Below, in pieces: positions 2,143 through 56,693 of a DNA stretch of 64,000 nucleotides (position 1 is its first letter; every line of letters starts with the position of its first letter). The stretch is from Balanoglossus misakiensis (lineage: Eukaryota; Animalia; Hemichordata): positions 5,840,791 through 5,904,790 of the forward strand of contig CM082596.2 in assembly GCA_040954595.2 (NCBI GenBank), written 5' to 3'. The position numbers were made by a program, and so were the translations under genes. The notes beneath the pieces were generated by a model, which saw nothing but the letters and a program-made list of their open reading frames with translations, did not search any database and had not been told where the DNA came from.

Positions 2143-2178
2143 ATGGGAAACCGCTGCTGCAAGCAACCGCATGGAAAG
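2143..2178 (+). CDS. Candidate first coding exon 1a, MGNRCCKQPHGK (myristoylation/palmitoylation-type N-terminus)
   Basis: aaATGG start, 12 open codons, donor AAG|GTAGGA, phase 0, matching the phase-0 acceptor at 18861. Confidence 0.7.
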
Positions 2179-5100
2179 GTAGGATACTTTGTTGAGAGTG
2201 TTTGATTTGTAAATGAGAGGCTGTCTTATAAGTTTTTCTCTCAAGGCTGTTTGTATTTGTTGTTTATAGAACGAAGACTTGAAAGCGATATTCTCAGATT
2301 GAATCACATCTCCAGTTTCTGTCTTGAAATTTCCTTATGTGTGCCATGATGACATAATTTCTTCTCCCAATTTAACGTAGGAAAAGGTTCTAGATAATGT
2401 GACATGTGCGGAGGTTGGTTGGGGATGAGTGGGGGGAAGGGATGGGGGTGGGACGACACGCATATTTCTGCAAGTGAATGAATTTTATAATAATTAAATG
2501 TTCCTCTTGCCTTGTATAAAACACAAGAAATACAAAGCAAACTGTCGCAGAGGAAATTTATTTTATGAGAATCATACTGGTATTGGGAGAGTTCATCAAT
2601 GATTTATAGATGTCAAAGTCACTGACATAGCAGTGGTGTCAATGTGCTTCAAAACAAATATTTTAAAACTAAGTACCCATCACGCCAAATTCTATTCTGC
2701 AGCTGTTTCAGTTCTCATGTGCAATGAAAATGACTACACAATAATTTGGATCAGTTTCTGGTTTCAAAACTAAATTAAAATTTGTCCGGTATACTTTCAT
2801 TCCTCCAATAATGTAATTGGATGGTTTCAAAATGACAACTATACACTCAGTTGTTCGACCTATGAACCGGAGCCCAGTGTATCAATTCGCGGAGATTTAA
2901 AAATAATGATGAGCATGAATCAACAGGAGGAAATTGATTTGGTGGCACAGATTCAAATGTGTCAAGAAGTATGAATGAGTTTCATGAGTATTTTTATCTT
3001 TCGATGATGAAGTTAGAAATGCAGTTCTGTTCAGTGACCTGCTGAGTACTCGTCCTCTGCAAGAACATCTCTTATGCACGTCGTTGTATCAAATAATCAG
3101 CATCAAATTTCTTTAAATCTAAATCTGTCGGATGTTGGCGGTCGTTCCCAGTGAAGTAAACTATTTTTTCTCCATACAGACAACTGTAGCAAAGAGATGC
3201 CCAAATTTATTAACAGGGCAACCCCCCATGATACAAATCAAAGAGAATTATGGGTAGTTTCATGATTGTGAATAAAGAGGCCAAGAAAAAAAACTGTGGT
3301 CACAATAACACATTTCTCAAAAATAGGGTAGGCACAATGTATAGTGGACAGCTTTTAAAAGATATTCTGATATATATATATCCAAGATGTATCTGAAATA
3401 CTGTCATATATTATATCAGAGATCAGTTGTTCAAACACCGAAAAAGACAGTGACGTCATTGTAATACATCTATAACTCTGTACAGGTTTTTCCAATTTGG
3501 TTTCATGTTAACTTTCGTTTTAATTAGAGTTTTGTTTTACTTTCCATTTATTTGGCTCTAAAAACTACTTTCAATGGGTAAAGGTTTCGTTATCCGAACT
3601 TCATACATGTATGTATTGGTGTAAGATTTTACCATGTTCTTATATTTCTACATATTAGGGTTTTAGTTTCTTTATGAACTATATCTGATATCAATGCTAT
3701 AAGCTCAACATTTGCAGCATTAATTAGCTAGATAATACTGGGCATTTCAACTTGCAAAATTCATCATCTACGCTGTGTATCAAGTACATGTATCTAGGAA
3801 TAATACTACACCATATCAACAAGGGTTATCTTTCAGGTCAACTTAGGGGTCAACGTCTGGGAGGTCACAGATCAGAAATCAAGTGATTGGTGTCATCATA
3901 TTATGGCTCCCATTCTAATTGTGTCATGCTTCAAATTCCAGGCCAAGAAATTCAAAAGTGAAATTATATATAATGCACTGAAATGTTTGTAAATAATATG
4001 TAAATGCCAGACATCAATACTGACAAAATACCACAAGTGAAATCCATTATCTCATATACATATACGTTACATGCTTGTATACTGCGCCTTATTATAAATC
4101 CACTCTCCTTGTAGTCAATCATAGACTTATGAATCAAACATAATCTAAACATCGGTAATCATTACAAGAAAAAGAAGGATGAAGATGATATAGACAGGTC
4201 ACAGGTCAAGGAGGAGTATAGATACAATTAAATTGGACTGCCTAGTGATAGATGTTGTCACTGTATATCCAACTGAGTTATTAGAAACAGCCCTGTCAAA
4301 ATAATTTACTGCTTGAAAAAAATTCAAGGCTCCATCCTATGTGCACAGAAAATTGATAGTGTCAACTTCTATATACTGAGCTTAAATCAAAATGTCTTAT
4401 GTGATACCGTGATGATGGGATCAGATGCCTGCCGTATTCTGAGAAGTTAATGTCTGAGTTTTGTCTCTGAGTTTAGCCATGGTAACTGTGGTTCAGCTGG
4501 GTGTGAATGATGACATCAAGACAAATAAACCTCCTCCTAGAGGGCAGCAAGGACTTAGAAATCATTAAATAGAATTACCAGTGTGAAATGACGTACACAT
4601 TTACAGTGTTTACCCTGTATAATTCATTATGGTGTTTTTAAACCAATCTGAATTGAACCTTGCTCTGTACGTACTAGCTATCTTTCTTTGGTCCACTATG
4701 GCCAACAAACAAATTACCTATTATACAAATTTAACAAGAATTTCTAAGAAAAGGCAGACCACACTTGTTATCTGATTATTTAAAGTTTGTCAAAGAAAAG
4801 TGGAATTATTTGGTTTGGTGATTACACCAATGAGACCACATGCATTTCATTTTCATTTGAAATTATCCAAATGTGACAGTTAAAAGTTACACCTAGTCAT
4901 TTATTAAGTCTAATGTTACTCCTATAATCTATTTTTACATCAGAGTACTAAAGCAAGAACTTCACTGATTGGAACATCAACTATCATGTAGCCTGCCCTC
5001 TATTGACTGCTTTTGACATTTTATTCCTTCATCATCAAGTGATCTCTATTGGTGGTTTTATGTGAATAAATCTAAGACATGACAAAAAGTTCAAAACTTT

Positions 5101-6049
5101 TTAGAGGTCCAACTTTATCATAGATCATTGGCCAAATTGGCCAAATATCTGTGAAAAAAATTGATAATACTGTACGTGTGGTGAGATGAGATGCTGTCAG
5201 ATCATGAAAAAGAAAGCATGTCTGGCATGAGAATACAACTTTATCCATACCCTACAGACAAGCACAGCTAGATTTATCCAAAAGAAGATTCTAATTTTAG
5301 TAATTAATACCTTCATCAAATGACAAGACGCCAGACAGTTTTGCAACTTCAAACTGGACAAGTCATTAGCTGGGTTTTCGCTGACATGAACACCAGAGTG
5401 GAAACCTTGAGATGACAAGAAAGTGGTATAAGCTGCTTGATGAAAAACATCTGGTGGACAAATCTGGCAGTCTGAAAAAAGTGCACAAAATCTAGCAAAC
5501 AAAAAAATATTTAATATCAAGATGCGTTTGTTTCCAAACTTTTCTTACTGAATAATGAAGGAAACCATAGGTTATTAAAACTTGAATCAGAAAATAAAAA
5601 AAAAAATTTCAGCAATAATAGATATTTCCAAAAAAATCATTTTTGACCAAAAATTGACAAAAACCTTTTCTTTCCCAGGTCGCACTATCCTGGCCAATTT
5701 TCAGTTTCTGTCTCCTGTCAGACTGCACAATCCGTCAGTGACAATTTAATCAGCTAATGTAATATCATACCGACATTGATATCCAATCACAGCTGTTCTC
5801 TCTGACGTTTCTAAAAATGTAAACCCTAGGGCCAAATTCCGTGCCTGCCAAGAATTTCACCATCAGACTCTCTCAATCTCCCAGCTGATGCATTATTGCC
5901 ATTGGTTCAGCTAGCTACCCAGGGCTGTTTCACTTTTTTCGTTGTTTTTTGTTGTTTTTTTCCTGTGTGGTAATCCAGCGTTTGTTTTCAAGCGAAAAAA
6001 ACGGCTCCCATCCTTTTACCTATATGTTGCAGTCTTTTAAAGTTTATTC

Positions 6050-6086
6050 ATGCGCATGAAAGACCGCAGCTTGCTGCAATTGCCAA
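6050..6086 (+). CDS. Candidate first exon (MRMKDRSLLQLP, phase 1) or uORF-bearing 5'UTR exon
   Basis: Donor CAA|GTAAGT at 6086/6087, with CCAAT/ATTGG boxes upstream (~5784, ~5901). Phase fits the acceptor at 56645 but not 18861. Confidence 0.35.
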
Positions 6087-6455
6087 GTAAGTGTGATCTT
6101 TTAATCTCCCCTACTTTTGAATCTCATTACAGAAACGCGATGTTGATCGTACTAGAGCCAGTAATCTTGTTAGCTGACATCTGTGTGGATCTTTGTCAAC
6201 ACAAATCTGACATCTGTTGTCAGCGTTTCGTTTTATTGCATTGCTCACTGATAAAATATAACAAGCAGCCATCTTTAATGTAGATAATTTCTTGTACTTG
6301 GATTATCAGCCTTTCATGCCACATGTGCAGAAAGGAATAGGGTGAAGTGATTGTTAACTTCTCCAGTTGAGTGTTTTCGCGAATTTACGTACAAGTCACC
6401 AAATACTTATAAATAGAAATGTTTATTTTGAAGCAGAAACTATTTAAATCCTCTG

Positions 6456-6730
6456 AGAAAATTCCAAGAAACCCACTTTTATTATTGTCATGTTCGTGAA
6501 GTTTTACATATAGCTCAGCCAAATGAAATTAAATTCAGTGTTCGGATAAAACCACATGGTCACCCTCCTCAATTTTGAGATAATCTTTGTTAAATGTGTT
6601 CATCTAGAATACCATTAGTGAAAAAAGGCTTGCTCAACAGTTTTTTGCATTATTGACTTATGACATGGTGGCCCCTATATTTTATAGAGAAATGACAATA
6701 GTTTCAATTTAACAGATCGTACATCCTTAA
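6456..6730. mobile_element. Degraded partial copy of the TTAA-flanked element at 35496-35916
   Basis: Shares colinear blocks (tattgtca..ttttaca-atagctcag, ggtcacc..ttttgagataa, cccctatatttt, aatgacaata-tttcaattt) and the right terminus CGTACATCCTTAA. Left boundary approximate. Confidence 0.75.
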
Positions 6731-9989: not shown

Positions 9990-10060
9990 ACGCTCGATTG
10001 GTTGACCGTGTATCACTTTGTCTGCAGCCGCAAGCTGATTGGCTGTCATTTGCATAAAGT
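9990..10060 (+). promoter_or_regulatory. Putative promoter of exon 1b: two inverted CCAAT boxes and an octamer
   Basis: ATTGG at 9997-10001 and 10038-10042; ATTTGCAT at 10048-10055; locally raised CpG. Confidence 0.5.
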
Positions 10061-10190
10061 TGATAAAGTTCAGTAGTGACAGTGTAATCACTCGCGAGTT
10101 GATTTCTGTTCGCTTTTAAATGGTTCTAAACATTTGTTTGAGTCAAAACTTGCCACTGACTGGGATCTTCGTTTTTTGAATTGAATCAAG

Positions 10191-10199
10191 ATGGGAGGG
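10191..10199 (+). CDS. Candidate first coding exon 1b (MGG)
   Basis: aagATGG Kozak context, ATG GGA GGG then GTAAGT, phase 0. Promoter motifs 140-190 bp upstream. Confidence 0.65.
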
Positions 10200-12028: not shown

Positions 12029-12472
12029 TTATATTGAACACCTATTGCCTGGCCATGAGGGCCATAGTGGCCGTTTATTACACCCGAGGGGCTGTGAGTT
12101 ACCAGAATCATATGCTATTTCCCGAGGCCGCAGGCCGAGGGAAATAGCATATGATTCTGGTAACTCACAGTCACGAGGGGGTAAAAACGGCTGCTATGGC
12201 CCGAATATAGGCCAGGCTATAGGTGTTTTATAATAAACCTTATGCTAACAGCTGGGAAAATCTTGCAATTTTCTCTTGAGGTTGGCAGACGATACCTTCC
12301 GCGGTGGCCATTGTGTCAGACGACGTGACGTTGGTCACGTGACCTGTTTATATTTTTTCTGCTATTTCCCTAGCGGTTCATAGTCGATTCTATTTTCCTA
12401 TCACGTGACGGATTCTGGCGAATCACGGCACAGTATTAGCATGAGGTATATTATAATAAACACCTAACTGCC
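12029..12472. mobile_element. Compound double-hairpin (foldback) element
   Basis: Perfect 32-bp arms at 12092-12123 and 12139-12170 inside a ~200-bp palindrome. A second inverted pair spans 12228-12456. Confidence 0.75.
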
Positions 12473-13589: not shown

Positions 13590-13625
13590 ATGCATAAACT
13601 GTGCCTGAGTCTAACCCCACCAAGG
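13590..13625 (+). CDS. Candidate first coding exon 1c (MHKLCLSLTPPR)
   Basis: ATG, 12 open codons, donor AGG|GTAAGT, phase 0 matching 18861. Confidence 0.5.
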
Positions 13626-13750: not shown

Positions 13751-14094
13751 CAAAGTCTCTCTCTCGCTGCCCTTTTTTCCATTAATTATATTTGATACAA
13801 GACACCGTTTGTTATTCTACATGTGGATATATAGTGAATCAATGTTCGACCACACACAACTTCCATCCCTCTTATAGACAGGAGAGTGAAAAAAATCGCT
13901 AAAATGAATAATCATTCTTTACCATTTATTCATTTTGGGCGAGTTTTTACTCTCATATCATACAAGTGGGATGGAAGTTTTGTGTGGTTGATCATTGATT
14001 CACTATATATCCACATTTACATTAACATAAATGGTGTCTTGTATCAAACATAATTAATGGAAGGGGCAGCTGGAGAGAGACTTTGTCCCTTTAA
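13751..14094. mobile_element. Palindromic MITE-like element (~340 bp)
   Basis: Imperfect inverted arms of ~160 bp (caaagtctctctc...gagagagactttg). Right end is GTCCCTTTAA; the matching left terminus is missing. Confidence 0.8.
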
Positions 14095-18600: not shown

Positions 18601-18860
18601 TTCTTGCACTAGGGTAGGAAAGTGACCATGTTTCTTTTTGGAAGAGAAACAAGTGTTCAGTGCATTGAAATAAATGTGTAATTATTATGTTAGCTGATAC
18701 TGTTGGCTTTTTCTCTACTCCTATGCTGTCATTCCAGAGCAAAGAAATTTCCTGTAAGATGATTATGTTTTCACACATAAAAACTTTTCAAGACAACATC
18801 TGCTTTCCTGAATACTCATTTTCTAAAATTATTCCTCTGTTTTTTTTTTTTGCTTGCCAG

Positions 18861-20249
18861 GGTATATCAAGCTTGCTGCCTTCTCACAGCGCAAAGCAAG
18901 ATGATGATCACGGTGGCCAAGATGACGAAGAGCTGATCATGAAATCTGCACAAAATGGTTCCAGTCTGGAAAGGTCTCGTGGGAGACCCATGGATGCTTC
19001 GAAGCAAAGGAGTTACCATGGTGATCACGCCAACCGAGAAACCCCGAGCCCAGAGAAACAACAACTGCCGTCCGAACCGACTCACGGAAACGGTCTCGTG
19101 GTGCCGCTCGACCAGCAGGGGAGTGCCAGCAGTGAGCACGAATCGTACGCCACCCCACCCACCAGTATGTCAAACTCCCGCGAGACCAGTCCAACAGGTG
19201 TGCCCGACAGGCGAGAGCCAGCCACCGCATCCAAACCATCGCAGCGCGTTCTTCCTCTGCCAAGTCAGGTCCCCGGAAGGCCCGGTCGAGATCGTGATTC
19301 TCAAACTGCCAGTGATTCACAAGACATCGCTCCTGCATCTTCGGGATCAAGCAGTCCGAAAATGTGGCACGTAAACCCCCTTCAGCAGTCCGAGGGGAAG
19401 AAGTCCCGCAGTCCGAGCAGTCGAAAGAAGCGGGGCAACAAAGCGAAATTAGCCCGTGTACCTCCGGTCGACAGTTCACAGGCAACAGGCCATCCCAGCA
19501 TCCAGAGTCCCACCACCAGGCAGGAGATACCATTAATCCGGCAAGGATCACTTCCCGGAAGTTTTGAACAGCGGCGTTCTACAATATCATCTCCGGTGTC
19601 TTACACACCACCTCCACAACACAAGCACCAGCCAACGAGTCAGAGCACGGGTGTGCCAGTGCAGCGTCAGCGCGGGGTTTTGACAAGGCACTTCAGTAGC
19701 GACAATGTGCCGGTCTCCTTCACCCATACACCGCCGAGTCCACAGCTTCCTGGAAGGCCGAGGCACTACAGTGTTGGCGACCACAGAAGTGCTTTCTCTC
19801 CGCCACAGCAGAAGTTGTCAAAACAGCTGAGTCTGCAGGAGGAGTACGTGCGGTACGAGAACGGAGAGAGATACAGGTATCCAGAAGTCAAAACTCGCAC
19901 TAATCAAACTCCGCCACCACCCCCTCAAAGGTCAAGCAGTCATGTTTGGTCGAGGCAGATCTCTGGACAGTCGTGGTCTTCACCGCCTCCCCAGGTTCCA
20001 AGTCCCAGTTTCCATTACTCGAATCAAGGCCAAGATGTCATCAGCTCCGCCAGTCAACCCACTCAACAAGCAGTCAGAGATGCAAGCCAACCACGTTTTC
20101 CCCAGGACGGTCTGACGTACAGCCAGCCTGTGCAGTCTCCAACACTTCAGCAAGCTCAACTCCCAAGTAGTCCAACACAGCACAGTCCATTTCCTCCTAA
20201 TTTACATTCGATGCATCCAAACCAACAGCTTTACTATCAACTCCAGCAG

Positions 20250-20282
<33 letters not shown>

Positions 20283-23200
20283 TTTCAACAGCACCAATAT
20301 CAACAACAGCAACCAAAGTTACAGCCAGCTCCAATGCACTACGCCAGGCAAAATAGTGCTCCTGTTTTACAATCAGGCCAATCTCAACAAGTCTATCAAG
20401 GCTACTCTGTTCATCCAGGGCCGGCAGCACAGCAGCCAACTGGAGAACTTCCTCTTCAGGAGAAATACTACCAGCAGAAGGAGAGAGATCCCAGCAACTC
20501 TCCGCCTCAAGGATATACCGGCAGCTATCCAAGTGACACTGCCCATAGCAGTACATCTTCGTCCAGGTATGACAGCGAAACTCGCCCTCTCCTCCCCCAC
20601 CACACCAGAAGTTCCACCAGCACAACAACCACAACTACTACCACGAGCCCAGACCCAACCGCAGACACTCTTTTCTACTTGGTTTCCAAGCATGACAGCA
20701 AACAACGAACTTCTTCGGGAGATGGAGACCTACAGGATCAATCCAGAGCAGAGTACGGATCAAGCAGAGGCGGCGCAATACAAGATATTATCGACTTCAG
20801 AGATCAACATGAAGAGGATGCTTTTTACATCAACGCAGAAGCGTTGCTGAAAGACGAGAAAGCTAGAAGAGGAAGGAGTCTTGAAAGAAATGATCCGGCA
20901 TGGGAGGACCATATCCGGAGGAGGGAACGCAGAAGGGATGAATTGATCCGATCCTCATCACAAGAAAGGGAAGAGAGACAACAACAAAGGCAGAGGGGCT
21001 CCACTTCAGAAAGGGTGACAAATTCAGAGCAGGAGTATGCAAGCGTGCCTCCGTCTCCAAGGAGGGCATCCAGGCACTCCAGTCGCAGCCCTCAAAGGAG
21101 TTCCAGAAGTCAAAGGCGTGAGAGTCCCAGCCCCCGGCCAAAGCGAAAAGTGAGTGGTTCAAAAGAAAAACTTTCAGTAAAATCAGACCAGATTCCTGTG
21201 TATGCCAATGTGCCTCTACAAAAGAAGGTTAAGGCAAAGAAAAAGGAGAAGAAATCGTATGAGGCACCGGTTTATGCAAATGTGCCAATACAGGGAGACA
21301 AAAGAAGACAAAGGAGCCTCAGTAGCCCCTCATCTACCGGTATACCCAAACAGTTAGAGGTACCACCAGATGAACAACCTGAATATGTCAATGTGCCGCT
21401 GCGTTATGACAGAATAAGCCGAAGCCCATCCAGCTGGAAAGAACAGTATGTGATGGACTATGTTCAGAAGTCGTCAGATCCAGATCTCGTGAAACGAAGG
21501 CCGCCGGCAGGTCCGAAGAAATCCGAACGGGAAAGTCCGGTGCCAAGGAGAGTACAGGAGAGCCCATCCCCAAAGAAGAAGATTGATAGTTTATCAAAGG
21601 ATAGCCGGTCACTCAGCCCTCCAACCAGACGGGCCGATAGTCCCAGGTTTTCCCCCAAAAGCAGTCCCTGGCAGAGGAGACAGGAAAGCCCTTCGCCTGT
21701 GCGCAGAGAAAGGCCAAGGAGCTTTGAGGGTGAACCAGGTGATGGAGAAACTAGAAAGCAAAAGGTTCGTGACAGTGAACGGCCAAGGAGTGTTCACGAG
21801 GAACTACTCATGCCGGGAGTTGTTCCGGCTGCTATCGGATATCTCAGAACTAGAAGAGGTCGAGGTTCTGTGAGAGGTGTGAATGAACCTCATCAAAGGA
21901 GTCAGAGTGTTGGACGTGTGGAGAGGTCAAGCAACGATCTTTGCTACTCGGCCAGCAACCTAGAACATTATGCAAGGGATACATCGGATATCACAGACTC
22001 CTTGCCCAGGTCCTGGGGAATGGAGATGTTTGCCAGACGGAGAAGGAATCTGCAGCTTTTTCAAGACGGCTTAGAGCTGGATGCGAGGGAAGGATTTACC
22101 AACCAGGCGTATATTCCAGACACTCTTGACCGAGATCGACCGTGGGAGAACAGGGATGCGACAGAAAGAAGTCGGCTCCGACGACAAGGCTCGTACGAGG
22201 ATGCGCTCGAGAGAGGCTTGATATCAACATCCAGCAGCAGTCCCGAAAGACAATCACCCGTCAAACTGAGTGGAAAAGATGCACAGCTATATTACCTTCA
22301 CGGAACTGAAGACAGTATTCCAAATTTAAGCAATTACTACGGCAAGAAACCAGCACGTCATCGGCGAAGTGAAGACTTTGAAAATGCGCTGAGAGAGCTC
22401 GATGAAATGTACGCTAAATTAAACATTGAAACTGACGATCTGTACCGGCCACATCATGGTGAAGGTTACGGTCGAAGCAAGTCCACAGAGGTGCCCTTGC
22501 ATTCTCAGCATAAGATTCCTGTACCTAGGAAACATAGAAAAGAAGCCCCTTCTCAAAAAGCCAAAAGACGAGCTCAGAGGGAGCGCCCTCACAGTTTCAC
22601 TGCAGGTTTATCAATGAGCAGGGATTCGGAAATTCCATACCAACCCCAAAAGAAGCAACTTCACGTGAAACCTTCCAATAAAAAGAATGATGAAGTGCCA
22701 AAACATGAAAGGGTTGCATCAAAAGCAAGATATAGATCCCAGGAGTATGATTTCTCGAGCAGTGATGAAGAATATGACCAGCGGTTGTTGCAGAAGGCCA
22801 AATCTACGGCGGCTGTTTTCCGTAGACCTGAGATGTATGACAATCCAAGTTCCAGCTCAGACAGCAGTCCACAACTTCAAAGGATCAGTTTGAGGGGAAG
22901 AAGCCACAGCGCGGACAACGTTGTTCCCAGGCGAGAAGGTCAAGTCAAACTTCAAGGACCGCCACAAAGACCCTACGGCAAAGTGGTGATACCCAGCGAT
23001 CTAAGTATATCTCAGGACGATTCTCCGCCTCTGGTGAAAGAGAGATCGGACGACGTGAAAGACAACCGTGAATTGGAAGAAATGTATAACGCCAGTGGTC
23101 TTCACCCCCGTCTCGTGTGGATTACCGACTCTGACTCGATGTCCGTACAGAGAGGTTCAACAGAACATCAGGTATCGACCTCAGAGTTGGAGGAGGAGCT

Positions 23201-23586
23201 CCCTAAGGACGAGGAAGAACTCGGAACTAAAGAAAAAACAAAACAGCAGATGGGATCCGCTAAGGAGGCCAAAACTTGTGACAAAGCTGCTGAAAAACGA
23301 TCTCATAAGCAGACGCACCCAAGCGGGATACCTAAACCACGTAAATCCGAAACTGCGGAACGCGTCTCCAAAACGCCGGACTCGTCACCCGTGTATATTC
23401 GCAACGTGAGGGTTCTGCACAGGGCCAAGGTGAAGGCCAGGAAGGAATCTCCGGAGAAACCCAAGTCAATCCTGGATGATCCCAGCATTCCCTTGGCGGA
23501 TGGGAGTGAAGGAGAGGATGAGGAAGTGAAGGCATTGATGCAGCCATCCTTAGAGGAGGTCAAACTTCAGAAGACCGCCATGACAG
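18861..23586 (+). CDS. Giant 4,726-nt coding exon (~1,575 aa), S/P/R/Q-rich and predicted disordered, with a poly-Q tract
   Basis: Core of ORF 18687-23600. Acceptor (T)n-GCTTGCCAG|GGT in phase 0 and donor ACAG|GTAGAC in phase 1. Composition shifts sharply at both boundaries. Confidence 0.9.
20242..20312 (+). repeat. CAA/CAG-rich coding microsatellite (poly-glutamine)
   Basis: cagcagcaacaacaacaacatcaacaacaacaacaacaa... encoding QQQQQQHQQQQQQFQQHQYQQQQ. Confidence 0.9.
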
Positions 23587-26500
23587 GTAGACCCTTATAA
23601 AATATGGTGGTAGCTAGTCTTCCCTTTGGTCACCCTCGGGTATCATCAGTTCATTGGGTCTTTCAAAAATCTGCCATGTGAAAAATAGATCACTAAGATC
23701 TATGATTATAGTGCGTCCTTGCCCTATAATAATTGCCCTATTGTTGTGCATGTGAAGCCAGCTGGGAATCTGACAAAATTAGGTAAAAATGTGTTGTGTG
23801 GGAGTGCACAAGACTATCCATGCTCCATTGTAGTTTCTCAACCAATCAACCCTCAAATTCAATGATCTTGACATGCTTCATGCTAATACCATAGAAAAGC
23901 AGGAAAGGGTTGATCATGCCGATATTGTCCCATCCTAACATAGCTGGGAAGTTTTAGAAACCCCCCGACTAAAGCCTATACTGCAGTTGGCAACATTTGT
24001 GGTAAAGTTGACAATAGACTACATGCCCCTTGACAAAGTCCACTGAGAAGTCCCGAAAACGGTTGAATTGGCCTGGCATCACACACTAACTAGGTTCTTT
24101 ATTAAGAATGGGTTTTATCCAAAAGCATGAAAAAAAGTTTCTCCCCCAACAACTGATAATATCTGTATTAATAACATTATGACTGTCTGGTACTGGAAGT
24201 TGTTGTTAGGCCAACAACACAAATCCGGCCAACAAACGCACATCTGACAAGCTCACTGTTCAATTTCTATGCAAATTTCTGTTGTCATGACGCTGTAACT
24301 CTTGTTGGTGATTGGCTTGTATCCTCTACTCTTCCTCATCCATCTCTACCTCCTCTCAGTTTGTCTCCATCACAAATTTTCTCATCTATTATGACATCTA
24401 CAAAACTCAGACAAAAATCTTTTCTCTTTTCCACTATCTTTACTTGATTTCTGTCTTTGCTGGAGCGCCAAGACTCTACTCATACTTTTGACCAATTCTG
24501 TCGGGTTTTATCATAATCTCTGTGTTCTGAATGTCATGATAGCCTTCTCATGGTTGTGGTAAAAAGGCCTGAGCCCATTTTGCCTGTTTTCACATTAACA
24601 GCGTAGTTCAATGAACTAAAACCAGGTGAACATCAAAGTATATGCTAATCTACCATGTAAAAATCACATTTTTATGGTATAAAGTGAATTCTGCTCTGCA
24701 TAACTTACAAAAATATAAATTTTTATGCGAATAGATTAATATGCTTATTTATTTATGTGTATCATGAGTTTACAGTACTTCCTTCCTTATTTATGTTTTC
24801 CATATTTAACAGTTTTTTAAAAGTACTTGGTTATTTTGATGCTAGTGTGGACCATAACTCATCTAATTTCTTCATAGTTCTTTGCTGATAAACAACAGTA
24901 TACTTCAGATTGCGGCAGAGTTGATACACAAATTAAACTGACCAGTTTGCCTCCAAGAACCACTTATAAACTGCATTTAGTCCAAATATTTTGAAACGAA
25001 ATTTTGTAAAAAAAAATATCCCATAATCCATTCTGATTTGTTGTAAATTCATATATCTCTTTGTAGACTTTTCCAACCGATCTCATCAGATTGTTTCATA
25101 AACCTTTTAAATCTAATTTATCGATCTCACTTCAATTTTAATATTTATCAGATTCTCACGGATAAAACATTTATAAAACTTACAACTGATTGTGTTGCCT
25201 TCCGTACAGAACAATTTATAGGAAATAGGAAAAATATATTGCACTTTATTTAACTTTTTAATTATTTAATATTTATTTTTAATTCAATTATGTTTGGGGA
25301 GGGAGATATTACTGGTACCAAACCTTTACAAAGCACTTACCTTCGATATTAAAGTACAATATTTATAGAAACTTTCAACCTTATTTTGATACAATTTACC
25401 CACGGTTTTGTTACTTTATTTCTGAACTGCACTGCCATTTGATATTATTACTTTGTAAAAATTATTTTACGTTTAGCTCTTATGTTTTACTCTTCTTGTT
25501 GTGGCCGTGAGTGGCAAAAATTTATTGTACTCACCAAAAAATAAAAGCCCTCTGTCAATAGTTCCATGATGTTTTCAAATCTTTCTTCGTTCAGAGTGCC
25601 TTACTGGTACATAGCCTGTCCATTCTTATATGACTTCACATATGTTTTCTGTAAGATATCAATTGAGATTCAAAACATAATTAAAAATAATTGCATTTAA
25701 AAGCTAAGGTTTTCACTCTCAAGTTTGACAGGGTTTACCAAAGCACACTTTCTTGAAGAAATTGACAATATAAAGTGTATGAGTGTTAGGATACAACATG
25801 ACATCAAATTTCTGAATGCAAGATTCAATGTTGTATTAGACCAAGTAAATGTGCTTTAAAGATTTCACACCTCTTGGAACAGGTTAACACATTTCTGGAG
25901 TGATTTCACTATACAGTGAAAACTCTCCACAGTGTTTAATAATTAAATTAATGGCTATCTCTTCTCTTAAAGAGAAACGTTAAGCTCAAAACATCTTCAA
26001 TTTAATGGCCTCTTCAATACATTCTTTTCCACAGTTGTTAAAATACTCACTGGGAAACTTTGCAAGCAATAGAGTGGTGTGTAGCACATTCATGATGGAG
26101 TACTCAGTAAGTTCACACATTATAAATATAGCACTTATTGTTACAAATGGAAAAGAAAATATAAGAACATGTTATGTAAAGTGCAATACTGGGACAGACA
26201 CACACAGAGAGAAAATAGACAAGATCTGCTGACGAAGTGGCTGAATGATGGCGACACACAAGCAGTTAGAGAAGTACACGCCCTCACTATGGCGATGACC
26301 TCATCTGACCTCCAAGTTGAACTGATCTTCAGGACACTGAGGGCTAATCACCCATTCAGGTGTTATGTTTCAAAAGAGAGCAGATATTAAAACTGTGGTG
26401 AGAGTTTTGATATCAGGAATGTTTGTGAAATTGTTTTGTTTGAAGGCAAATAATGCTGCTGTCAAACTTAGATTACAAACAATTACAAATACAGGCTAAG

Positions 26501-28469: not shown

Positions 28470-28496
28470 ATGGACCCCGGGACCCAACATCCTGTG
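28470..28496 (+). CDS. Candidate start-codon exon of an internal isoform (MDPGTQHPV; exon 28462-28496)
   Basis: Acceptor ttttctgtcttcag|, gtcATGG start, donor GTG|GTATGT, phase 0. A non-coding exon donor AAC|GTAAGT lies at 28268 and a CCAAT at 28166. Confidence 0.45.
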
Positions 28497-28606: not shown

Positions 28607-28625
28607 AAAAATGTGCAAAACTCTG
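28607..28625 (+). CDS. Candidate 19-nt micro-exon (KNVQNS + G)
   Basis: Strong pyrimidine tract ctctctcctccttttccag| and donor CTG|GTATGA. Converts phase 0 to phase 1, which is what joining 28496 to 56645 requires. Confidence 0.45.
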
Positions 28626-31600
28626 GTATGATTTATAATTTTTGGAAAGGAAAACCATATTCTTCGGTCAATAGTTCTTTATGTTTATATTTATTATATT
28701 TTTTTTGTTTTTTGTTGTTCTTTGTTTGATATCTGGGTCATGATTTATAATAGGTTTTGAATCTACTATGTTCACATGATGAATTATTACGCAAGGCTGT
28801 GATATATTTTTGGCCTGTGTGAATGTTGTGTAGGGTGTAGAGTATATGCAATAGTGAATTTGACATCATCAACTGTGGTTACCACAGCAACATGGTCACA
28901 AGCATAACAAACACCTGGCTTTTTCATATTTTTCTCACAGAATTTATAGCTGAAATTTACTGAATATTGAATGAGAAATGTAAAGTCATGCAGTCTGTGT
29001 TTGGAAACAGTGTACGACTTGATCTGAAATGAAACAATTATTGTGTCATGTCACACATGCATAAGATCTGATGTGATTAATTTATAGGTGAACAGTTCAA
29101 ATGCTCGGAATTCTTCAGGGTCGGAAACGCAGATAAAATTGCAGGGGTTTTTCACCTTGTTGAGGTTGAATTTTGATCACGATTGTGTTGGGTATCTTCT
29201 TTGAGAAAAGTTACTGGGAGTTTGAGGTGATTTTGTACTAAAAATTGAAACTGTATTCTCCATAGAATGCGTTTTTTTTTTAGTTCAGCTGTGTAATTGG
29301 TATTTCAGTCCATGGATGCTGTATGTGCCGTCATCCTCTATATTCCACAATAATACCACCACTTCTAATGAATAACAGTCAATGAATCAAATCATTTTGA
29401 TTGGCCTAATAGTAAATATGCATTGCAGAACTAATTGACCACAAATACACAATAACGAAGGAGTCATCGCACTTCCTGGAACACGGATGACAAAATAACC
29501 AGACACGCACATCGCACCAAGCTACTTCAAGGGGACAGTGTTGAGCTGGTACAAATAAACAGTTTAAAGAGGCAGATTAGCATGCATGAAATTTACCATA
29601 ATTACATTGTGTTCCAAAGATTCATCTAGAATTGGATCATTACAATATGAAATCATAAAATCTTTAGAAAAATAAAAATTGTTACTTTAGTGTTGTCGTA
29701 TTTCAAGTGTTGTCTTTACATCATTTTATTTTTGTTACTTCTGAGCTGTATTTGAACTATTGCTCAACACATCATAAACAAAAAATGCCATTTTTGAGTC
29801 TTTCGAAAGCAGGGAGGCCTTGATTAATTTGTTGTTTTGGACTAAAATTTATTTTTTTCCCAAAAGTAGAGGTGGTAGTATCTTAAAAGAGGCCGAATCT
29901 TTGAAATAATTACAGTAATCTTATCCCATTTGGTATAACCAAGCCACACTACCAACACCACTGGAGAAAACAAATCTGGGGAAAAGTACAATGGCAACAG
30001 CTACCGGTATGTTTTGTAACCATCTTTAGTCGCTTAGATATACAAACGTAATTTGGTTTGGACCTTTACTTGATAATCAGTTATTTTTGTCATCTTTGCC
30101 AATTAATACATATAGATTAGCGTATACGTTTCATTTTTACTGTGCTGTTTACAAATACATTGAAATACCATTAGCCAAACTGCAGTTGAAGGAAGCATAA
30201 TGCAGTTTCCGCAAACTATGATTCCTTCTTTTAAAAGTTTATTTCTTACTCCAGCTTTTTAAACAAATGCATGACTATAACACTAATTGAGAAGTTCCTG
30301 TTGATATTTTCATGTAATTCAGCATTCGTTCATAAACTTACTTTATTATTTTATCAACATTAGTGTGGGTCAAACAAGTTTGGTAAAGGCACACTCTACT
30401 GATATGCAAAGTGAGGTGAAGCCAAAAATCTAGGGATCAATCTGTAGCTGTCGACAAGGACTTTTTTCTCATTAACATAATATCATTTTTATTGACTGGT
30501 GAGCACAAACTAATTAGCAATAACTATGTAATAAAAGCAGAACTTTCATAGTGAGTTATGTAATTTGATGTACTTTTGAAATCCAATATGATGAAAACCT
30601 GCAACCTACATAAAACAAGTCAAACAGATATTTGAGAAGCCAGATTTATTTTCTGCTTCTACAAATGAGAGGCTATGACCTCTTTCTGGAAGGTGTTCTG
30701 AAACATTAACTAGCTATACTTACTTTGACTAGCTTTCATCCATTTTGTCAAACTTATCTGAAGAACCTTGTGTTCATAGTTTTTATGTTGACATCAGAAA
30801 GTAAGTTACCAAAGCAGTAGAATTCCAAATTTAATTTTCCATATAGTTTAGTTTTCAGCTAAATTTAATGTTCTGATTTATGTAATCTGAAGGGAATAAA
30901 TCTTGTCATTTAAAAGTGTGAATGAACATCTCTTAGGAATTGAAATATGAACTGTCACAGATAAACAAATATGATACCTTTTACAACCACTGTTGCCATA
31001 GTAATCACTTTTCATGATTATCAATCATTTAGATTTCATGTAATTCTGACTTGTGGTTTAGATTTTTGTAAGGTGGAGGGTGATATATACATCACTTTTT
31101 AATCAAACTGTTTGCAACAAATCAGTCACTTACAGATATATACTTATAGTTTCTGCACCATCTGAAAAAGTTATTGGACTTTTTGTCATGTGCAAATGAG
31201 ATCAAAAATCATTGTGATATAACTTCCCTATCAATCACCCCATACTAAGGTTTTCTATAACTGTGATATTAAACTGAGGCAAATCTGATTGCTGTCATCT
31301 TTATTGGTACAGTTTCCCCTTACCCCCCTGGTATGGAATGGTTCGTTCCATCATAAAATCTTGATAACATGGCTATATGGAAATTATCTAGTCTGGTTCG
31401 GTTGCTGAAGGCTACGTCTACATTCCGATTAGGGAGGACAAATTGTTATTTGTTGCCAAGCTCCCATCAGATGGAAATTTATGAGCCGTCTCTCAGTATT
31501 TCAAATCCCTAATGCTGTAGCTCTGTCAAAGTAACCAGAAAATGGACTTTTTATAGTGTACATGTAAGTGTTTAAATGTACAAGTCAGCTTTTGACTGGG

Positions 31601-34072: not shown

Positions 34073-34091
34073 ATGGACAGCGATGACGAGG
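34073..34091 (+). CDS. Candidate alternative first coding exon (MDSDDE + G)
   Basis: aggATGG Kozak context, donor AGG|GTGAGT, phase 1, CpG-rich leader at ~33990-34060. Confidence 0.7.
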
Positions 34092-35495: not shown

Positions 35496-35916
35496 TTAAG
35501 GATGTACGCGCAGAACATAAACCGGAAACAGTGCGCGCCCGGTCTTTTTCGCATAGGATTACATTGAAAATTGCTAGAAAACAAACTTCTACTATTGTCA
35601 TTTTCACGAAATTTTACACATAGCTCAGTCCAGCAAATATAAATTCATTGGTCAAATAAAATATAGGGGTCACCGCGCTCTATTTTGAGATAAATTGCGT
35701 CAAAAATTTTGCCCATAGACAAACCATTGGTGAAAAATGCTGAGTCAGCAGTTTTCTTCTATTATCGACTAAATTCAAGGCTCTGTATTTCAAAAACAAG
35801 CGCGGTGACCCCTATATTTTATTACGGATTTTCATTATACATACAAAGGAGAATCCAAAAATCCACAATTAAAAAAAATGACAATACTTTCAATTTTACT
35901 GAACGTACATCCTTAA
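35496..35916. mobile_element. Non-autonomous DNA transposon with TTAA target duplication (Kolobok-like termini)
   Basis: TTAA-GGATGTACG ... CGTACATCC-TTAA, plus an internal 22-bp inverted pair aaaatataggggtcaccgcgct / agcgcggtgacccctatatttt. Confidence 0.85.
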
Positions 35917-39428: not shown

Positions 39429-39474
39429 ATGGATAAATACATTCGTGCAGAAAGGTGGAAATATATGCTACCAG
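39429..39474 (+). CDS. Candidate alternative first coding exon (MDKYIRAERWKYMLP + G)
   Basis: accATGG Kozak context, donor CAG|GTAAAA, phase 1. CpG-rich upstream region with CRE-like TGACGT/ACGTCA (~39177, ~39231). Confidence 0.6.
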
Positions 39475-41089: not shown

Positions 41090-41190
41090 GTTATAACTTA
41101 GCCTAGTACCTAGCCGTATTTTGTCCACTTTGCTTCCAAAACTAAAGCAAAGCGGACAAAATACGGCTAGGTACTAGGCTAGTTATAACT
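41090..41190. mobile_element. 83-bp hairpin insertion (41099-41181) with a perfect 9-bp target-site duplication
   Basis: 37-bp arms with one mismatch, a 9-nt loop, and GTTATAACT directly repeated on both sides. Confidence 0.85.
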
Positions 41191-42652: not shown

Positions 42653-42713
42653 AATTCTAGAACACTCTCCTTTCACAGATATGATATCTGTGAAAGAAGA
42701 GTGTTCTGGAATT
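42653..42713. repeat. 61-bp near-perfect palindrome
   Basis: aattctagaacactctcctttcacagatat-g-atatctgtgaaagaagagtgttctggaatt; 30-bp arms with 2 mismatches. Confidence 0.85.
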
Positions 42714-43770: not shown

Positions 43771-43816
43771 ATGTCGTATATAAAACTCATGTTGGAGCGA
43801 TTTAGCCGTAAGAATG
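43771..43816 (+). CDS. Candidate alternative first coding exon (MSYIKLMLERFSRKN + G)
   Basis: aacATG start, donor ATG|GTAAGC, phase 1. CpG-rich leader with ETS-like ACTTCCTG (~43658) and CCAAT (~43697). Confidence 0.65.
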
Positions 43817-44772: not shown

Positions 44773-44910
44773 TACAGTGAAACCTGTCTATTAAGGACAC
44801 CTCTGGGACCAGGAAATCTGTTCTTAATAAAGAGGTGTCCTTAATAGACAGGTAATTCAAACAGGGACCTTTGTCTTGAACAATCTGTCCTTAGAGACGT
44901 TTTTATAGAG
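44773..44910. mobile_element. Truncated related Tc1/mariner-type MITE
   Basis: TA-CAGTGAAACCTGTCTATTAAGGACACCTCT start with an internal inverted copy agaggtgtccttaatagacaggt. Right end degraded; boundary approximate. Confidence 0.7.
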
Positions 44911-46383: not shown

Positions 46384-49300
46384 TGCTTTGATCAGCTTTT
46401 ATAAACTAGCCCACACAATAGCTGAAACTAGATGCATCAATTTCTGGTGAACGTATATGCTAACAGTATCCAGAATGCATTAATTCTTTTCAGTTGAACA
46501 AAGTGGAACGCAATCATTTCCGTTCCGAAATGACCTGCCTCTCCCATCTGATACCAGACAATAGTAGTTCAGTTTTCGCTAGTTCACAATGGGGTTGGTG
46601 TGGCCAACATCTTTGTCAGACAGGAAAAAAAAGTTTCTGAAGTGTTTTGTGTCCGATTGCCAAGATTTATCTAGTAATTTTAGAAGACTCTATGGAACTG
46701 AGTTGGCCTGTCATTTGAGAGAAAAAATAAACCACAGGGCTGGCGGTCTTACCAAATGTTAACACTTCTATTACATTTTACATTTTTGTCCTTGGTTCAA
46801 ATATTTTCATAAAATGTAGAATGATGTGTTTACCAGTGGAGTTTGGATCTAATCCCAGTATTCATAACGCCATCGAAAACCTTATTTGGTTGTAAGGAAT
46901 GCCAACTTGCACTGACGTGATAAATTTGTTTTTACTTTATTACAATTTTTATTGAGAACTGTTGATCTCCCCTCCCCAAGCCACACCAGACATTAATACT
47001 TGATGTATTGAAAGTCAGTCAGGCTGGTTGTTTTATGGTTGTTATGGAAGTTGCTGGATAACCCAATTGGAAATGGTCTTACATTTATGGGTGTGAAAGT
47101 CAGCCAATCATATTATATGTTGCTTTTTCTGATCAACCAAAGTTTTGAAGTAGTGTAAAACAGCCAATCAGAGCACCTGTTACATTTTGTGGTCATGCCC
47201 TTGAAGTTAAGTGTATGTACATCCAAACGACTCAATTAAAGTTGTCAAACAACATTGAAAATGTAATTAAGGGCCTAATGTCCCCTCCATTTGGTTATTT
47301 ATGAATGTCATTTTGGACAAAGCTTTGGTTTATAAAATCATGTTAAGTATAACTTCCTGTTACTTGAGCCATGGGATGGAGATTCAGTGTATTGTCAGTT
47401 AATTTTTTGCCGTGGGTGGGACATGATGTTACAATGTGTTTGAGCAGACATGATTGTTGTCAAGGCCTTGCACTTAAAATTTTGGAAAATGCGATAACAG
47501 TCAAATAGAATAGGTTATGAATGTCGCTGAATGATGAGGGTCAACAGATCACACCCGTATGAGACGTGTTCATGGAGAACAAAAAATCGATGTTTAAAAC
47601 CCTGATGGGGTCTCAAATCCAAAATGTCCCCAGGGCAGACGAACAAACACCTGAGTGCCAGTCAGTGACCTAGGATATTACTGAGCGATTTCAACACACC
47701 TGCACACACTCTGAATAGAACAAAAATAAAATGTGATAGCCTGCAATGCAATGAAGAATATACTCTACCACATAATACGTAGTAGAATTTGATTTTTCTT
47801 CTATTGCAAGTGGGCACTCAAGCTTTACATTTCACTCGTACCATACCCCTGGTTTCTTAATGATGTGGTCCAGCACTTCTATTCAGTACAGTGGGGTAAG
47901 GCCATTCTACTGTCATGACAGGGGTAAAGATTATTGGGCACATGCATACATGTACATCTATTCTTAACTTGGCACTGTTCTATGTCAATTTTGCATTTTG
48001 TACTTTTTATGTAGTCAAAATGCTGCTCTCTATATACCGGTAGACTTATTTTGTCTAATTTGTTTAGCTTTGTCCACAAAACGTGTTCAGCAGGCAAGAA
48101 AGTGGAAAACAGAATGGTAGTTACGTACAAGATATTGTACTGATGGTGAATTGTCTCTATACACATGTAAACTTAAATGGCAACTGACAAATTACTTCAT
48201 TTATCATCAGGGGATGAATTAGTCTTACTTGTTTCCCAACACAAACCCTCCAACACGCAGAGAATGTGCAATTATCGGGGGTGCAGTTTGCACTTGGTGG
48301 AATGACCACGCGGCATTCGCTGCTTCAGGGATGACATTATGGTCGGGTGGTTGCAGATGCCTGAAAGGGGGATTTTATGCTTGTCGATCAGGTGGATTTA
48401 ATGGCTACAGACCTGTCATTAAAGAGACAATCGCAGCATTGTGGCTCCAGGGTTCCTATACTTGTTAATTGCGGACAGTTTTGTCCCAATTCGCAGGAGC
48501 CATTTGTCAGACTCATTAAAACTGACATCAAACTTCAGGACAGGCAATCTTCATACAGGTGCTTTGTGCAGATGATAATTAAGGGTGAAAGCTCACTGCA
48601 GTATTAAGGGGACAATTGTAGTGTTGTTCCTATGGGGATTCTCTCATGGTTCTGGTACTAGTGATTCAAAATCACCGCCTGGTCTCAAGTGTTCAATTCT
48701 AATGAAATCAGAGGAAGGAACCAGAGAAATACACAGTGAAACTGTTCACCAGACTGTCCACAACCCTGCAATGAAAATGGCTAGATTGTCTGCCATAATT
48801 TATGGCACTATCAGCCTACTATACAGACATTGTGGTCAAAACAAGTTCAAGCAAATAACTGGCCCTAATTGATGTGCAATCACCACCTCCGAATAATGAC
48901 AAGTCAATTACCAATCACCCCTCCAGGCTTACTGGTTGACTTAATGTCATTAGCATACGTTTGGGTTGTGGTCATTAACTGTGTACAGTTACCCTTAATT
49001 AATTATCCAAATCACCACCCAGCAATAAACTCAACAAGCCAAAATAAGAGGCTGTTTTTTGTCTGTGAGATGTGACGACTCCAGATTCTTGTAATTTTTC
49101 AGTCAGAATAGAGTGAGTGAAGATTCCAAGAGTCTGTAGACTGTAGCAGAGTTTTAGTTAGCTAGCCATCATCAAACCAGGGCAAATGGCAAAAATAAAC
49201 TCAACCACTGAAGTGCTACCTTAACATACCAGTACATGTATGGCAAACATTAATACAGAAGTCACTGAAGGGCAGACATTGAAACCTTTAATTATATAGT

Positions 49301-50762: not shown

Positions 50763-51030
50763 TTTTTAATACAGTTTAATATCATTTTGCATTTAATGTG
50801 ATAGGTTTGTGAGAGTGGTAATTTAAGACTGTTGGAAATCAGTGACACAAAAGACAGCAATCTATAAAATATATCATCACAAAGCTCTTTTATTTATTTT
50901 ATCCATCATTTTGTGATGATATATTTCATAAATTGCCATCTTTTGTGTTGCTGATATCCAGTGGTCTCAAATTATCAATCTTAGAATCCTATCCCATTGA
51001 ACGCAAAATGATATTGAACTGTTTTAAAAA
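50763..51030. mobile_element. Palindromic foldback/MITE-like element (~270 bp)
   Basis: Imperfect ~120-bp inverted arms (tttttaatacagtttaatatcattttgc / gcaaaatgatattgaactgttttaaaaa; aaatatatcatcacaaa / tttgtgatgatatattt). Confidence 0.8.
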
Positions 51031-55569: not shown

Positions 55570-55652
55570 ATGTCACTTTCTATTTCTGTGCCGTCAGATC
55601 CATCTAATGTCAGCTTTGTAAGACAAGAGAGAGAAGTTTGGCTACTTGTAAG
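55570..55652 (+). other. Possible proximal first exon (5'UTR, or phase-2 coding MSLSISVPSDPSNVSFVRQEREVWLLV)
   Basis: Donor AAG|GTATGG and GC box GGGCGG at ~55443. Phase 2 fits 58660 only. Confidence 0.3.
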
Positions 55653-56644
55653 GTATGGTGTGCTTTGAAATTGTGGTACCAAAAGAACAAAAACTGCTCC
55701 TGGAGTTAGACTTTATCGTCTAAGATCCGTTGTGAGTAGTTTTTGTACTGTGAGAAGTTGGTATGTTTCCCAGAGATCTCTGAAATATCTTTGTGTTGCA
55801 GAGTTTGAACTTGGAGTGTTTATCGTAATCGTTCTCTAATGGCCTAGCATTCTTCGGAGACCATAAATTGAGAAGGATTTTGCCGTGCACATGAAGTTGT
55901 AAATAACGTCTCTGAGTTGTCAAGAATCGGCATCGGGTGTTCTTTGTCATGTTTTCATGTTTGCAAACAAAAGTGGGCAATCTGTTTGGAATCCCACTGT
56001 GTCCTCACTTGGCCTTGATTTTTTATTTGTCAGTGTCTTTTGAAGCGGTCCCTGCCTAAGCTCGTTGGAATGCATACTGTCTTGTTGACTGCCAGGTTGA
56101 CATCAATCTCACTCTGAACTAGGTTTTCACAATACAGACTGACTAGCATGGTGAACCAAGTATGTTATTCATGCTGTTATAGACCATCATGCTCAGCCTG
56201 GCAGTGTCTTCCTGCAAAGCATACTTGGTAAACTTCAGTAAAACACACGTCACCAAAAGATAGAACAAAGTTAAAAACCTGAGTTATGTCATCCAGCATA
56301 ATAGATAATTATTGTACTATTGATAATGACAGTCCCCCCTTTCATCTCTGCTCGTTGGAACAGTCTCATTGGTTTCATTGGTATGTTACGAACCCACCAC
56401 TGATGGGAAGGAGGGGGGATCCATTTACTTCAGACGTAATCACTATCTCTGATTATGTCTGATGTCAGACATAGTAATTTGATTCAGTCATTGGCAGAAA
56501 ATTACTATAATGACCCTTTGAACTGATGAGTCCCGATAAAGTGATTCCATTCATGGTTTGTAATAATCTAATTATCTTTACTCTGTCTAGACTAGCTTGT
56601 AAACAAGGCTTTAAACTGGGTGTTTTGTTTTTGTTTGTTTACAG

Positions 56645-56693
56645 ATCCCAGCAGCCCTGGCTCACCTAGGAGCAGGCAACATCTAGTAGAAAG
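56645..56693 (+). CDS. SVIL: 49-nt common exon ((D)PSSPGSPRSRQHLVE-R)
   Basis: Acceptor ttttgtttgtttacag|, donor AAG|GTAAGT, open from phase 1 to phase 2. Confidence 0.85.

What the first reader, a model, noticed from the sequence alone, without database searches (positions are those of the whole stretch)
2143..56693. Two-tier array of alternative first exons sorted by splice phase around a giant exon
Seen: short ATG-plus-donor exons at 2143, 10191 and 13590 all end in phase 0 and lie upstream of the phase-0 acceptor of the 4.7-kb exon. Leaders at 28470/28607, 34073, 39429 and 43771 all end in phase 1 and lie upstream of the phase-1 acceptor at 56645. Several have CpG-rich or CCAAT-bearing upstream sequence. 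Known: variable-first-exon arrays spliced to shared constant exons occur in plectin, UGT1A and clustered protocadherins. Inference: promoter choice alone would set the N-terminal tag and decide whether ~1,575 aa of disordered scaffold is attached to the supervillin-like core. Caveat: I picked candidates by eye, so selection bias is possible.
Basis: partly seen in the sequence, partly recalled or inferred. Interest (0 to 1): 0.85.

Follow-up and report, generated by a model that had tools for sequence, protein, structure and literature searches.

The report
Multi-promoter front end of acorn-worm supervillin
An acorn-worm gene, likely the actin-myosin scaffold supervillin, has several short candidate start exons, three of which match protein starts predicted in a related species, and two unconfirmed ones further upstream would give a giant form a predicted fat anchor: a known kind of gene design with one untested twist.

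Summary
The window is the 5' part of an enteropneust gene, most likely supervillin (Ptychodera flava 63%, Saccoglossus 43%). All coordinates and phases check out. ATG-donor pairs alone are near chance frequency, but conservation rescues the lower tier: 34073, 39429 and 43771 match three N-termini of P. flava RefSeq isoforms (0 of 150 null each), and the giant-exon-to-56645 junction matches isoforms X1/X2. The upper tier (2143, 10191, 13590) has no homologue on record and no reads were available. Indirect support: 2143 and 10191 give Gly2 myristoylation-type starts, 2143 with Cys5-Cys6 (null 4 and 1 of 3000, post hoc). Phase matching is a necessity of in-frame splicing, not a special design. 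'Promoter choice alone' may fail: the 19-nt exon 28607-28625 has the giant exon's phases and could replace it in frame. Plectin/PDE4D/AKAP12-type organisation, not protocadherin/UGT1-type. The scan had no note on this locus; one unchecked note concerns shark supervillin's upstream exons.

The parts
2143..2178 (+). Candidate upper-tier first coding exon (MGNRCCKQPHGK, phase 0); Gly2 plus Cys5-Cys6, predicted myristoylation and palmitoylation; an in-frame ATG in poor context lies at 2110
   Evidence: open splice to 18861; motif null 1 of 3000, post hoc; CpG top 6%; no homologue found
9996..10044 (+). Two reversed CCAAT (NF-Y-like) boxes about 195 and 155 nt upstream of the ATG at 10191
   Evidence: 0.11 such boxes expected per 300 nt
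10191..10199 (+). Candidate upper-tier first coding exon (MGG, phase 0); spliced to the giant exon it has Gly2 and Ser6
   Evidence: donor score 6.2, A at -3 and G at +4; open splice; motif test; no homologue found
13590..13625 (+). Weakest upper-tier candidate (MHKLCLSLTPPR, phase 0): strong donor but poor start context (C at -3, C at +4)
   Evidence: CpG top 19% only
18861..23586 (+). Giant coding exon, 4,726 nt, phase 0 in / phase 1 out, 1,575 codons rich in S, P, R, Q, E; three YxNV motifs at residues 781, 805, 842
   Evidence: open frame; GC steps from 0.30 to 0.50 at 18861 and the acceptor has the joint-best pyrimidine tract of 1,642 YAG sites; residues 786-1568 41% identical to Saccoglossus P0004, residues 1284 onward 61% to P. 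flava P0011; composition and motifs
28470..28496 (+). Candidate first part of a two-exon leader (MDPGTQHPV, phase 0); AGCCAATC at 28164
   Evidence: no match among P. flava leaders
28607..28625 (+). 19-nt micro-exon, phase 0 in / phase 1 out like the giant exon; second exon of the 28470 leader and/or an in-frame stand-in for the giant exon
   Evidence: joint-best pyrimidine tract; such an exon in 4 of 400 Markov copies at that tract strength, 24 of 400 one step lower, post hoc
34073..34091 (+). Lower-tier first coding exon (MDSDDE, phase 1), homologous to the start of P. flava isoforms X7/X11
   Evidence: 0 of 150 null; CpG top 0.3%
39429..39474 (+). Lower-tier first coding exon (MDKYIRAERWKYMLP, phase 1), 13 of 15 residues identical to the start of P. 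flava X3/X8
   Evidence: 0 of 150 null
43771..43816 (+). Lower-tier first coding exon (MSYIKLMLERFS...), two phase-1 donors at 43807 and 43816; homologous to the start of P. flava X5/X9
   Evidence: 0 of 150 null
56645..56693 (+). First shared (constant) exon, 49 nt, phase 1 in
   Evidence: the PSSPGS junction is shared by 11 of 12 P. flava models
58660..58733 (+). Second shared exon, 74 nt; holds the Met at which P. flava X12 starts
60529..62176 (+). Shared 1,648-nt exon; near 61650 carries a Tyr..Arg-Arg motif with the spacing of the myosin II-binding residues Y108 and R112/R113 of bovine supervillin
   Evidence: 63% to P. flava, 43% to Saccoglossus; motif in all three species; residue numbers from PMC3842989 passages
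63540..63623 (+). 84-nt exon; its P. flava counterpart is skipped in isoform X2 relative to X1

Best explanation
This is the 5' region of an acorn-worm gene, likely supervillin, in which at least three conserved short coding exons (34073, 39429, 43771) and the 4.7-kb giant exon each splice in frame to one shared acceptor at 56645, likely from separate promoters, and the upstream exons 2143 and 10191 likely start the giant form and are predicted to add a fatty-acyl membrane anchor. Shown from sequence: coordinates, phases, open frames, and that an upper leader joined straight to 56645 hits a stop after 13 codons. Shown by homology: the three lower leaders and the giant-exon junction. Inferred: separate promoters; transcription of the upper leaders; removal of Met1, myristoylation of Gly2 and palmitoylation of Cys5/Cys6; that the gelsolin repeats and headpiece follow downstream of the window. 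In this model all forms keep the myosin II-binding-type motif in the shared exon; lower promoters give short-headed forms with 6-15-residue tags, upper promoters give a form about 1,575 disordered residues longer that would be tethered to membranes.
For: P. flava cluster: 12 of 12 members read, 7 kinds of start: five short leaders, the giant-exon tail, and a leaderless form. These three sit in CpG peaks. Giant exon: strongest acceptor tract, GC step, open frame, no Met until residue 27, conserved 3' half. Upper leaders: 2 of 10 phase-0 candidates fit a myristoylation pattern, against 4 of 3000 null copies with two or more; Gly2 plus two Cys in 1 of 3000; two NF-Y-like boxes before 10191. Supervillin identity: Saccoglossus model P0016 aligns to the giant exon and the shared exons and ends in gelsolin repeats and a headpiece; the headpiece scores 63 bits to supervillin 2k6m against 42.6 to villin; Tyr..Arg-Arg spacing.
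Against: No reads, TSS data or relative's DNA were available. No protein covering the 5' half of the giant exon or any upper leader was found; both relatives' models begin inside the giant exon. ATG-donor counts are close to chance. 13590 has a poor start context. P. flava models stop without gelsolin or headpiece domains (P0011: 0 Pfam families), so the link to the supervillin core rests on one merged Saccoglossus model and one motif. RefSeq XP records are predictions; their read support was not seen. Two P. flava leaders have no significant window match (74 and 143 of 150 null).
Confidence: 0.65

Rival explanations
1. Only the lower tier is real. The upper 'leaders' are chance ATG-donor pairs, and the giant exon is reached from a first exon outside the window or from non-coding leaders, or is itself a first exon translated from 18687 or 18939 or from an internal Met.
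For: Counts near chance; no homologues; relatives' models start inside the giant exon; the frame stays open for 64 codons upstream of 18861, seen in only 8 of 210 acceptor-frame combinations; the window starts 2.1 kb before 2143, so more 5' exons may lie outside.
Confidence: 0.25
2. Upper leaders are real but the scaffold is set by splicing as well as by promoter: the 4,726-nt exon and the 19-nt exon at 28607 are frame-locked alternatives (both phase 0 in, phase 1 out), so an upper promoter can give an anchored giant or an anchored short form.
For: Leader -> micro-exon -> shared exons is open for all three upper leaders; leader -> giant -> micro-exon stops six codons after the giant exon; using neither also stops. 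The micro-exon's acceptor tract ties for best in the window.
Against: No P. flava model shows such a start; the micro-exon is fully explained as the second exon of a local leader at 28470, 110 nt upstream; three other phase 0->1 candidates of weaker tract exist, so such exons arise by chance.
Confidence: 0.15
3. The exons in the window belong to a transcript that ends before the gelsolin core, so the products are disordered scaffolds without supervillin's C-terminal domains.
For: All 12 P. flava models share one C-terminus and the one scanned has no Pfam family; an older Saccoglossus annotation had the two halves as separate proteins P0004 and P0017.
Against: The newer Saccoglossus model joins them into 4,279 residues; the myosin II-type motif is a feature of supervillin N-termini, reported also for sea urchin (PMC3842989 passages).
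Confidence: 0.15

Closest known systems
Ptychodera flava RefSeq locus XP_070569861-874 (isoforms X1-X12, named 'futsch-like', 'neurofilament heavy-like', 'dao-5-like')
   Same: Orthologue; three leaders, the giant-exon junction and the shared exons match. The lower tier is thus already implicit in a public annotation.
   Different: Not recognised as supervillin there; models start inside the giant exon, so no upper tier; two further leaders have no significant match in the window; models lack the gelsolin core.
Plectin and spectraplakin (dystonin/BPAG1, MACF1, Shot) variable first exons
   Same: Several short unrelated first exons spliced to a common exon (PMC8391331 passages); one dystonin start, BPAG1a3, carries a myristoylation motif (PMC3352950 passages).
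   Different: Plectin's leaders join one common exon 2 and its large exon 31 is skipped by splicing; here two acceptors of different phase flank the giant exon, which sits in the N-terminal disordered region.
PDE4D long and short isoforms
   Same: A promoter per isoform ahead of a unique N-terminal exon; long forms carry extra regulatory domains (PMC5342582 passages). That the first exons lie in tiers feeding different acceptors is recalled, not read.
   Different: The module added is small and folded (UCR1), not a 1,575-residue disordered exon; unrelated protein.
AKAP12 alpha/beta/gamma
   Same: Large scaffold, three promoters, isoforms differing at the N-terminus, one myristoylated and targeted differently (PMC7670535 passages).
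   Different: All three share the large body; no tier that omits it.
Human SVIL (SV1-SV5, archvillin)
   Same: Likely orthologue; long disordered N-terminus, myosin II-binding motif, isoforms differing in N-terminal inserts (PMC6192639, PMC3842989 passages).
   Different: Described human isoforms arise by differential splicing of internal exons; the passages read give no variable coding first exons and no acylated start; about 205-250 kDa against an inferred ~5,000 residues for the giant form here.
Clustered protocadherins and UGT1A
   Same: Variable first exons spliced to constant exons, same frame (PMC1885805 passages).
   Different: Their variable exons are large, similar duplicates that encode the functional domain; here the leaders are 3-15 codons and unrelated.

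Membership tests
Supervillin | Gelsolin repeats plus villin-type headpiece at the C-terminus | tested here: inconclusive
   Outside the window. Present in the Saccoglossus orthologue model P0016, headpiece closest to supervillin; absent from the P. flava model scanned.
Supervillin | Myosin II-binding motif in the N-terminal region (Y108, R112/R113 spacing) | tested here: met
   Tyr followed at +4/+5 by Arg-Arg at window 61650 region, kept in P. flava and Saccoglossus; residue numbers from PMC3842989. Only spacing was compared, not an alignment with the bovine sequence; binding untested.
Supervillin | Long intrinsically disordered N-terminus | tested here: met
   No Pfam family in either large exon; order-promoting residues 9-28% per 75-residue bin in the giant exon. 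Crude measure, no disorder predictor run.
Plectin-type variable first exon array | Several short, mutually unrelated coding first exons spliced in frame to one shared exon | tested here: met
   Lower tier; unrelated to each other: 0 of 36 pairs above the 99th percentile of the null.
Plectin-type variable first exon array | Each leader is a transcription start with its own promoter | not testable with these tools
   No runs listed. Only CpG and CCAAT hints.
Plectin-type variable first exon array | A second, upstream array feeding the giant exon | tested here: inconclusive
   Frames open; counts near chance; no homologue; acylation-type starts above null.
Protocadherin/UGT1-type variable-constant cluster | Variable exons are large homologous tandem duplicates | tested here: not met
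   9-46 nt of coding sequence, no pairwise similarity, no repeat family covering them.
Protocadherin/UGT1-type variable-constant cluster | One conserved promoter motif ahead of each variable exon | not tested
   No motif discovery run; pairwise alignments of the 300 nt upstream showed no similarity.
N-myristoylated / dually acylated proteins | Gly2 with permissive residues 3-7, Cys close by for palmitate | tested here: met
   2143 (Gly2, Cys5, Cys6) and 10191 (Gly2, Ser6) fit a recalled PROSITE-type pattern; MGxxxS/T and the Gly2/Cys5 precedent of HK1S from PMC4736023 passages.
N-myristoylated / dually acylated proteins | The fatty acid is actually attached and the ATG is the start in use | not testable with these tools
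   Needs labelling; an upstream in-frame ATG at 2110 would hide Gly2 of the 2143 leader if used.

The most novel reading that the evidence does not exclude
The upper promoters make a lipid-anchored giant supervillin of about 5,000 residues (myristate plus palmitate from 2143, myristate from 10191), while the lower promoters make unanchored short forms; at its boldest, the 4,726-nt exon and the 19-nt exon at 28607 form a frame-locked either-or pair, so anchor and scaffold are chosen separately. The probability given is for the anchored giant form; the either-or pair about 0.15.
Probability: 0.4. Interest if true: 0.5.

Novelty: new member of a known kind. Interest (0 to 1): 0.33.

Why it matters
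The architecture is a known one, and its lower tier already sits unnamed in P. flava's annotation, so the general claim is not surprising. Two things would be new if true: a supervillin that reaches the membrane through its own fatty-acyl anchor, selected by promoter (supervillin is described as a peripheral membrane protein; the 14 papers listed gave no sign by title or abstract start of an acylated form), and a giant exon and a micro-exon held mutually exclusive by reading frame. Practically, it fixes a gene that public annotations split, truncate and misname in both relatives.

Tried and rejected
No whole genome was held. No RNA holder was listed, so no reads could be laid; this is no evidence either way. 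Pfam found nothing in the two large exons. Three searches for the 5' half of the giant exon or an upper leader in other species found only Saccoglossus P0004 or nothing; the first and third scored only the ~8,000 best candidates. 29991-30015 looked like the homologue of P. flava's MATLAGTHVFS leader, down to the unusual Tyr at the junction, but 74 of 150 null copies scored as well: kept as a lead only. No match for P. flava's MAIVCTECELMSAVA leader (143 of 150 null; a weak look-alike at 55577 ranks sixth). Leaders as tandem duplicates: rejected. Phase sorting as an independent signal: rejected as logically required and not clean in the unbiased scan. ESM Atlas on the myosin-motif region gave one unnamed cluster at 0.87, a lead only. 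In one search two shared-exon boundaries were off by one base, giving false stops; corrected. Earlier findings by place and by sequence: nothing. The Nogo search gave 2 papers; passages of PMC10003089 did not describe the promoter layout, so that analogy is not used. The donor score uses recalled approximate base frequencies, not a model trained on this species.
Full report
What the gene is. The two large open frames of the window (18669-23600 and 60498-62180) have no Pfam family. The second matches Ptychodera flava XP_070569865.1 at 63% and Saccoglossus kowalevskii XP_006824142.1 at 43%, so the window is from an acorn worm closer to Ptychodera. The Saccoglossus cluster holds a 4,279-residue model (P0016) that aligns to the 3' half of the giant exon and to the shared exons and ends in gelsolin repeats and a villin headpiece; its C-terminal half is named supervillin-like and its headpiece scores 63 bits to human supervillin against 42.6 to villin. 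Near window 61650 a Tyr..Arg-Arg motif, kept in all three species, has the spacing of Y108 and R112/R113, needed for myosin II binding in bovine supervillin (PMC3842989, passages; the same paper reports the site in sea urchin). Caveat: the core lies outside the window, and the P. flava model scanned lacks it.

The observation. All eight candidate exons and both acceptors are as described, and every proposed chain is open to 63623. An upper leader joined directly to 56645 stops after 13 codons. 28470 works only with 28607. An unbiased scan does not single these exons out: donors with an open ATG number 8/4/6 by phase upstream of the giant exon (null 4.8/4.8/5.6) and 8/12/3 downstream (null 7.7/7.1/8.1), a mild lean to the fitting phase of 1.6 and 2 sd that reverses downstream at a stricter cut (4/2/0).

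Lower tier: confirmed by conservation. All 12 members of the P. flava cluster were read. They have seven kinds of start: five short leaders, the tail of the giant exon (X1, X2), and a leaderless form. Three leaders find their best window match at 34073, 39429 and 43771, both in a six-frame scan and among phase-1 ATG-donor candidates, where 0 of 150 Markov copies scored as high for each. These three lie in the top 0.3-2.5% of CpG density. The giant-exon donor 23586 -> 56645 matches the X1/X2 junction. The other two P. flava leaders have no significant match (74 and 143 of 150), and 28470/28607 matches none. That RefSeq isoform models rest on RNA-seq junctions is my background knowledge; their evidence was not seen.

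Upper tier: plausible, unproved. 18861 behaves as an internal acceptor: joint-best pyrimidine tract of 1,642 YAG sites and a GC step from 0.30 to 0.50; the 5' half of the exon is open for 785 codons in one frame only. Something phase-0 or non-coding must feed it. But no protein covering that half was found, both relatives' models start inside the exon, and the frame is also open for 64 codons upstream (8 of 210 comparable cases). The best indirect evidence is what the leaders encode: of 10 phase-0 candidates, 2143 and 10191 fit a myristoylation pattern (recalled, PROSITE-type); 4 of 3000 null copies had two such, and 1 of 3000 had one with two cysteines at positions 3-7 as 2143 does. The test is post hoc. 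10191 also has a good start context, a strong donor and two reversed CCAAT boxes. 13590 has only a strong donor. My odds: 2143 about 0.7, 10191 about 0.65, 13590 about 0.35, 28470/28607 about 0.55.

How it likely works. Lower promoters bypass the giant exon by position and give short forms with tags of 6-15 residues. Upper promoters must use a phase 0->1 exon to stay in frame, normally the giant one, adding 1,575 disordered residues and, for two leaders, a predicted acyl anchor, as with the Gly2/Cys5 start of the HK1S isoform (PMC4736023, passages). If the rest resembles Saccoglossus, the giant form is about 5,000 residues (inferred: 4,279 plus about 800). One complication: 28607-28625 has the same phases as the giant exon and the other joint-best acceptor tract. 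Upper leader -> micro-exon is open; giant plus micro-exon stops six codons later. It may be only the second exon of the 28470 leader, but if upper leaders reach it, splicing as well as promoter choice decides the scaffold.

Comparison. The design is that of plectin (PMC8391331, passages), the spectraplakins with a myristoylated BPAG1a3 start (PMC3352950, passages), PDE4D (PMC5342582, passages) and AKAP12 (PMC7670535, passages). It is not the protocadherin/UGT1 kind, whose variable exons are large similar duplicates (PMC1885805, passages): 0 of 36 leader pairs were alike. Human SVIL isoforms are described as products of differential splicing (PMC6192639, passages). Not found in print by listings only: supervillin with alternative promoters (2 of 20 listed mention supervillin, once each), supervillin in hemichordate papers (0 of 15 listed), supervillin with myristoyl (14 of 15 listed, none on its acylation by title or abstract start). 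Searches were listings used to pick papers. The library lacks most subscription papers and no supplements were read.

Verdict. Observation partly confirmed, interpretation partly supported. Interest 0.33, carried by the predicted lipid anchor on the giant form and the possible giant/micro-exon pair, both open to a single read-mapping test.

Noticed in passing
window 29991-30015: ATG with good context and two phase-1 donors (30006, 30015); resembles P. flava's MATLAGTHVFS leader but not above null (74 of 150).
   Followed up: yes
   Followed up: partly
window 47102, 47162, 51417, 52038; ATG-donor pairs at 47860, 51675, 52151: NF-Y-like CCAAT boxes and strong phase-0 donors in the lower region; possible non-coding or out-of-frame first exons (cf. 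P. flava's leaderless X12) or chance.
   Followed up: no
window 55598-55652: Acceptor with 16 of 20 pyrimidines and an AAG|gtatgg donor 1 kb before the shared exon; no frame fits, possibly a non-coding leader exon.
   Followed up: partly
window 21200-21400: Three YxNV motifs (residues 781, 805, 842 of the giant exon), one kept in Saccoglossus; recalled as an SH2-binding type of site.
   Followed up: no
window 56645-56693: The first shared exon is 14 residues shorter than the matching P. flava stretch.
   Followed up: no
window 50763-51030, 13751-14085, 12075-12187, 41099-41181, 42653-42713, 44782-44853; 6458-6730 with 35568-35916: Hairpin-type inverted repeats and one dispersed repeat in the introns, likely miniature transposons; some CpG peaks (12.2, 35.2-35.6 kb) lie beside them.
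   Followed up: no
P0003-P0017: Both relatives' annotations split or misname this gene: P. flava models end without the gelsolin core; Saccoglossus had two models later merged.
   Followed up: partly
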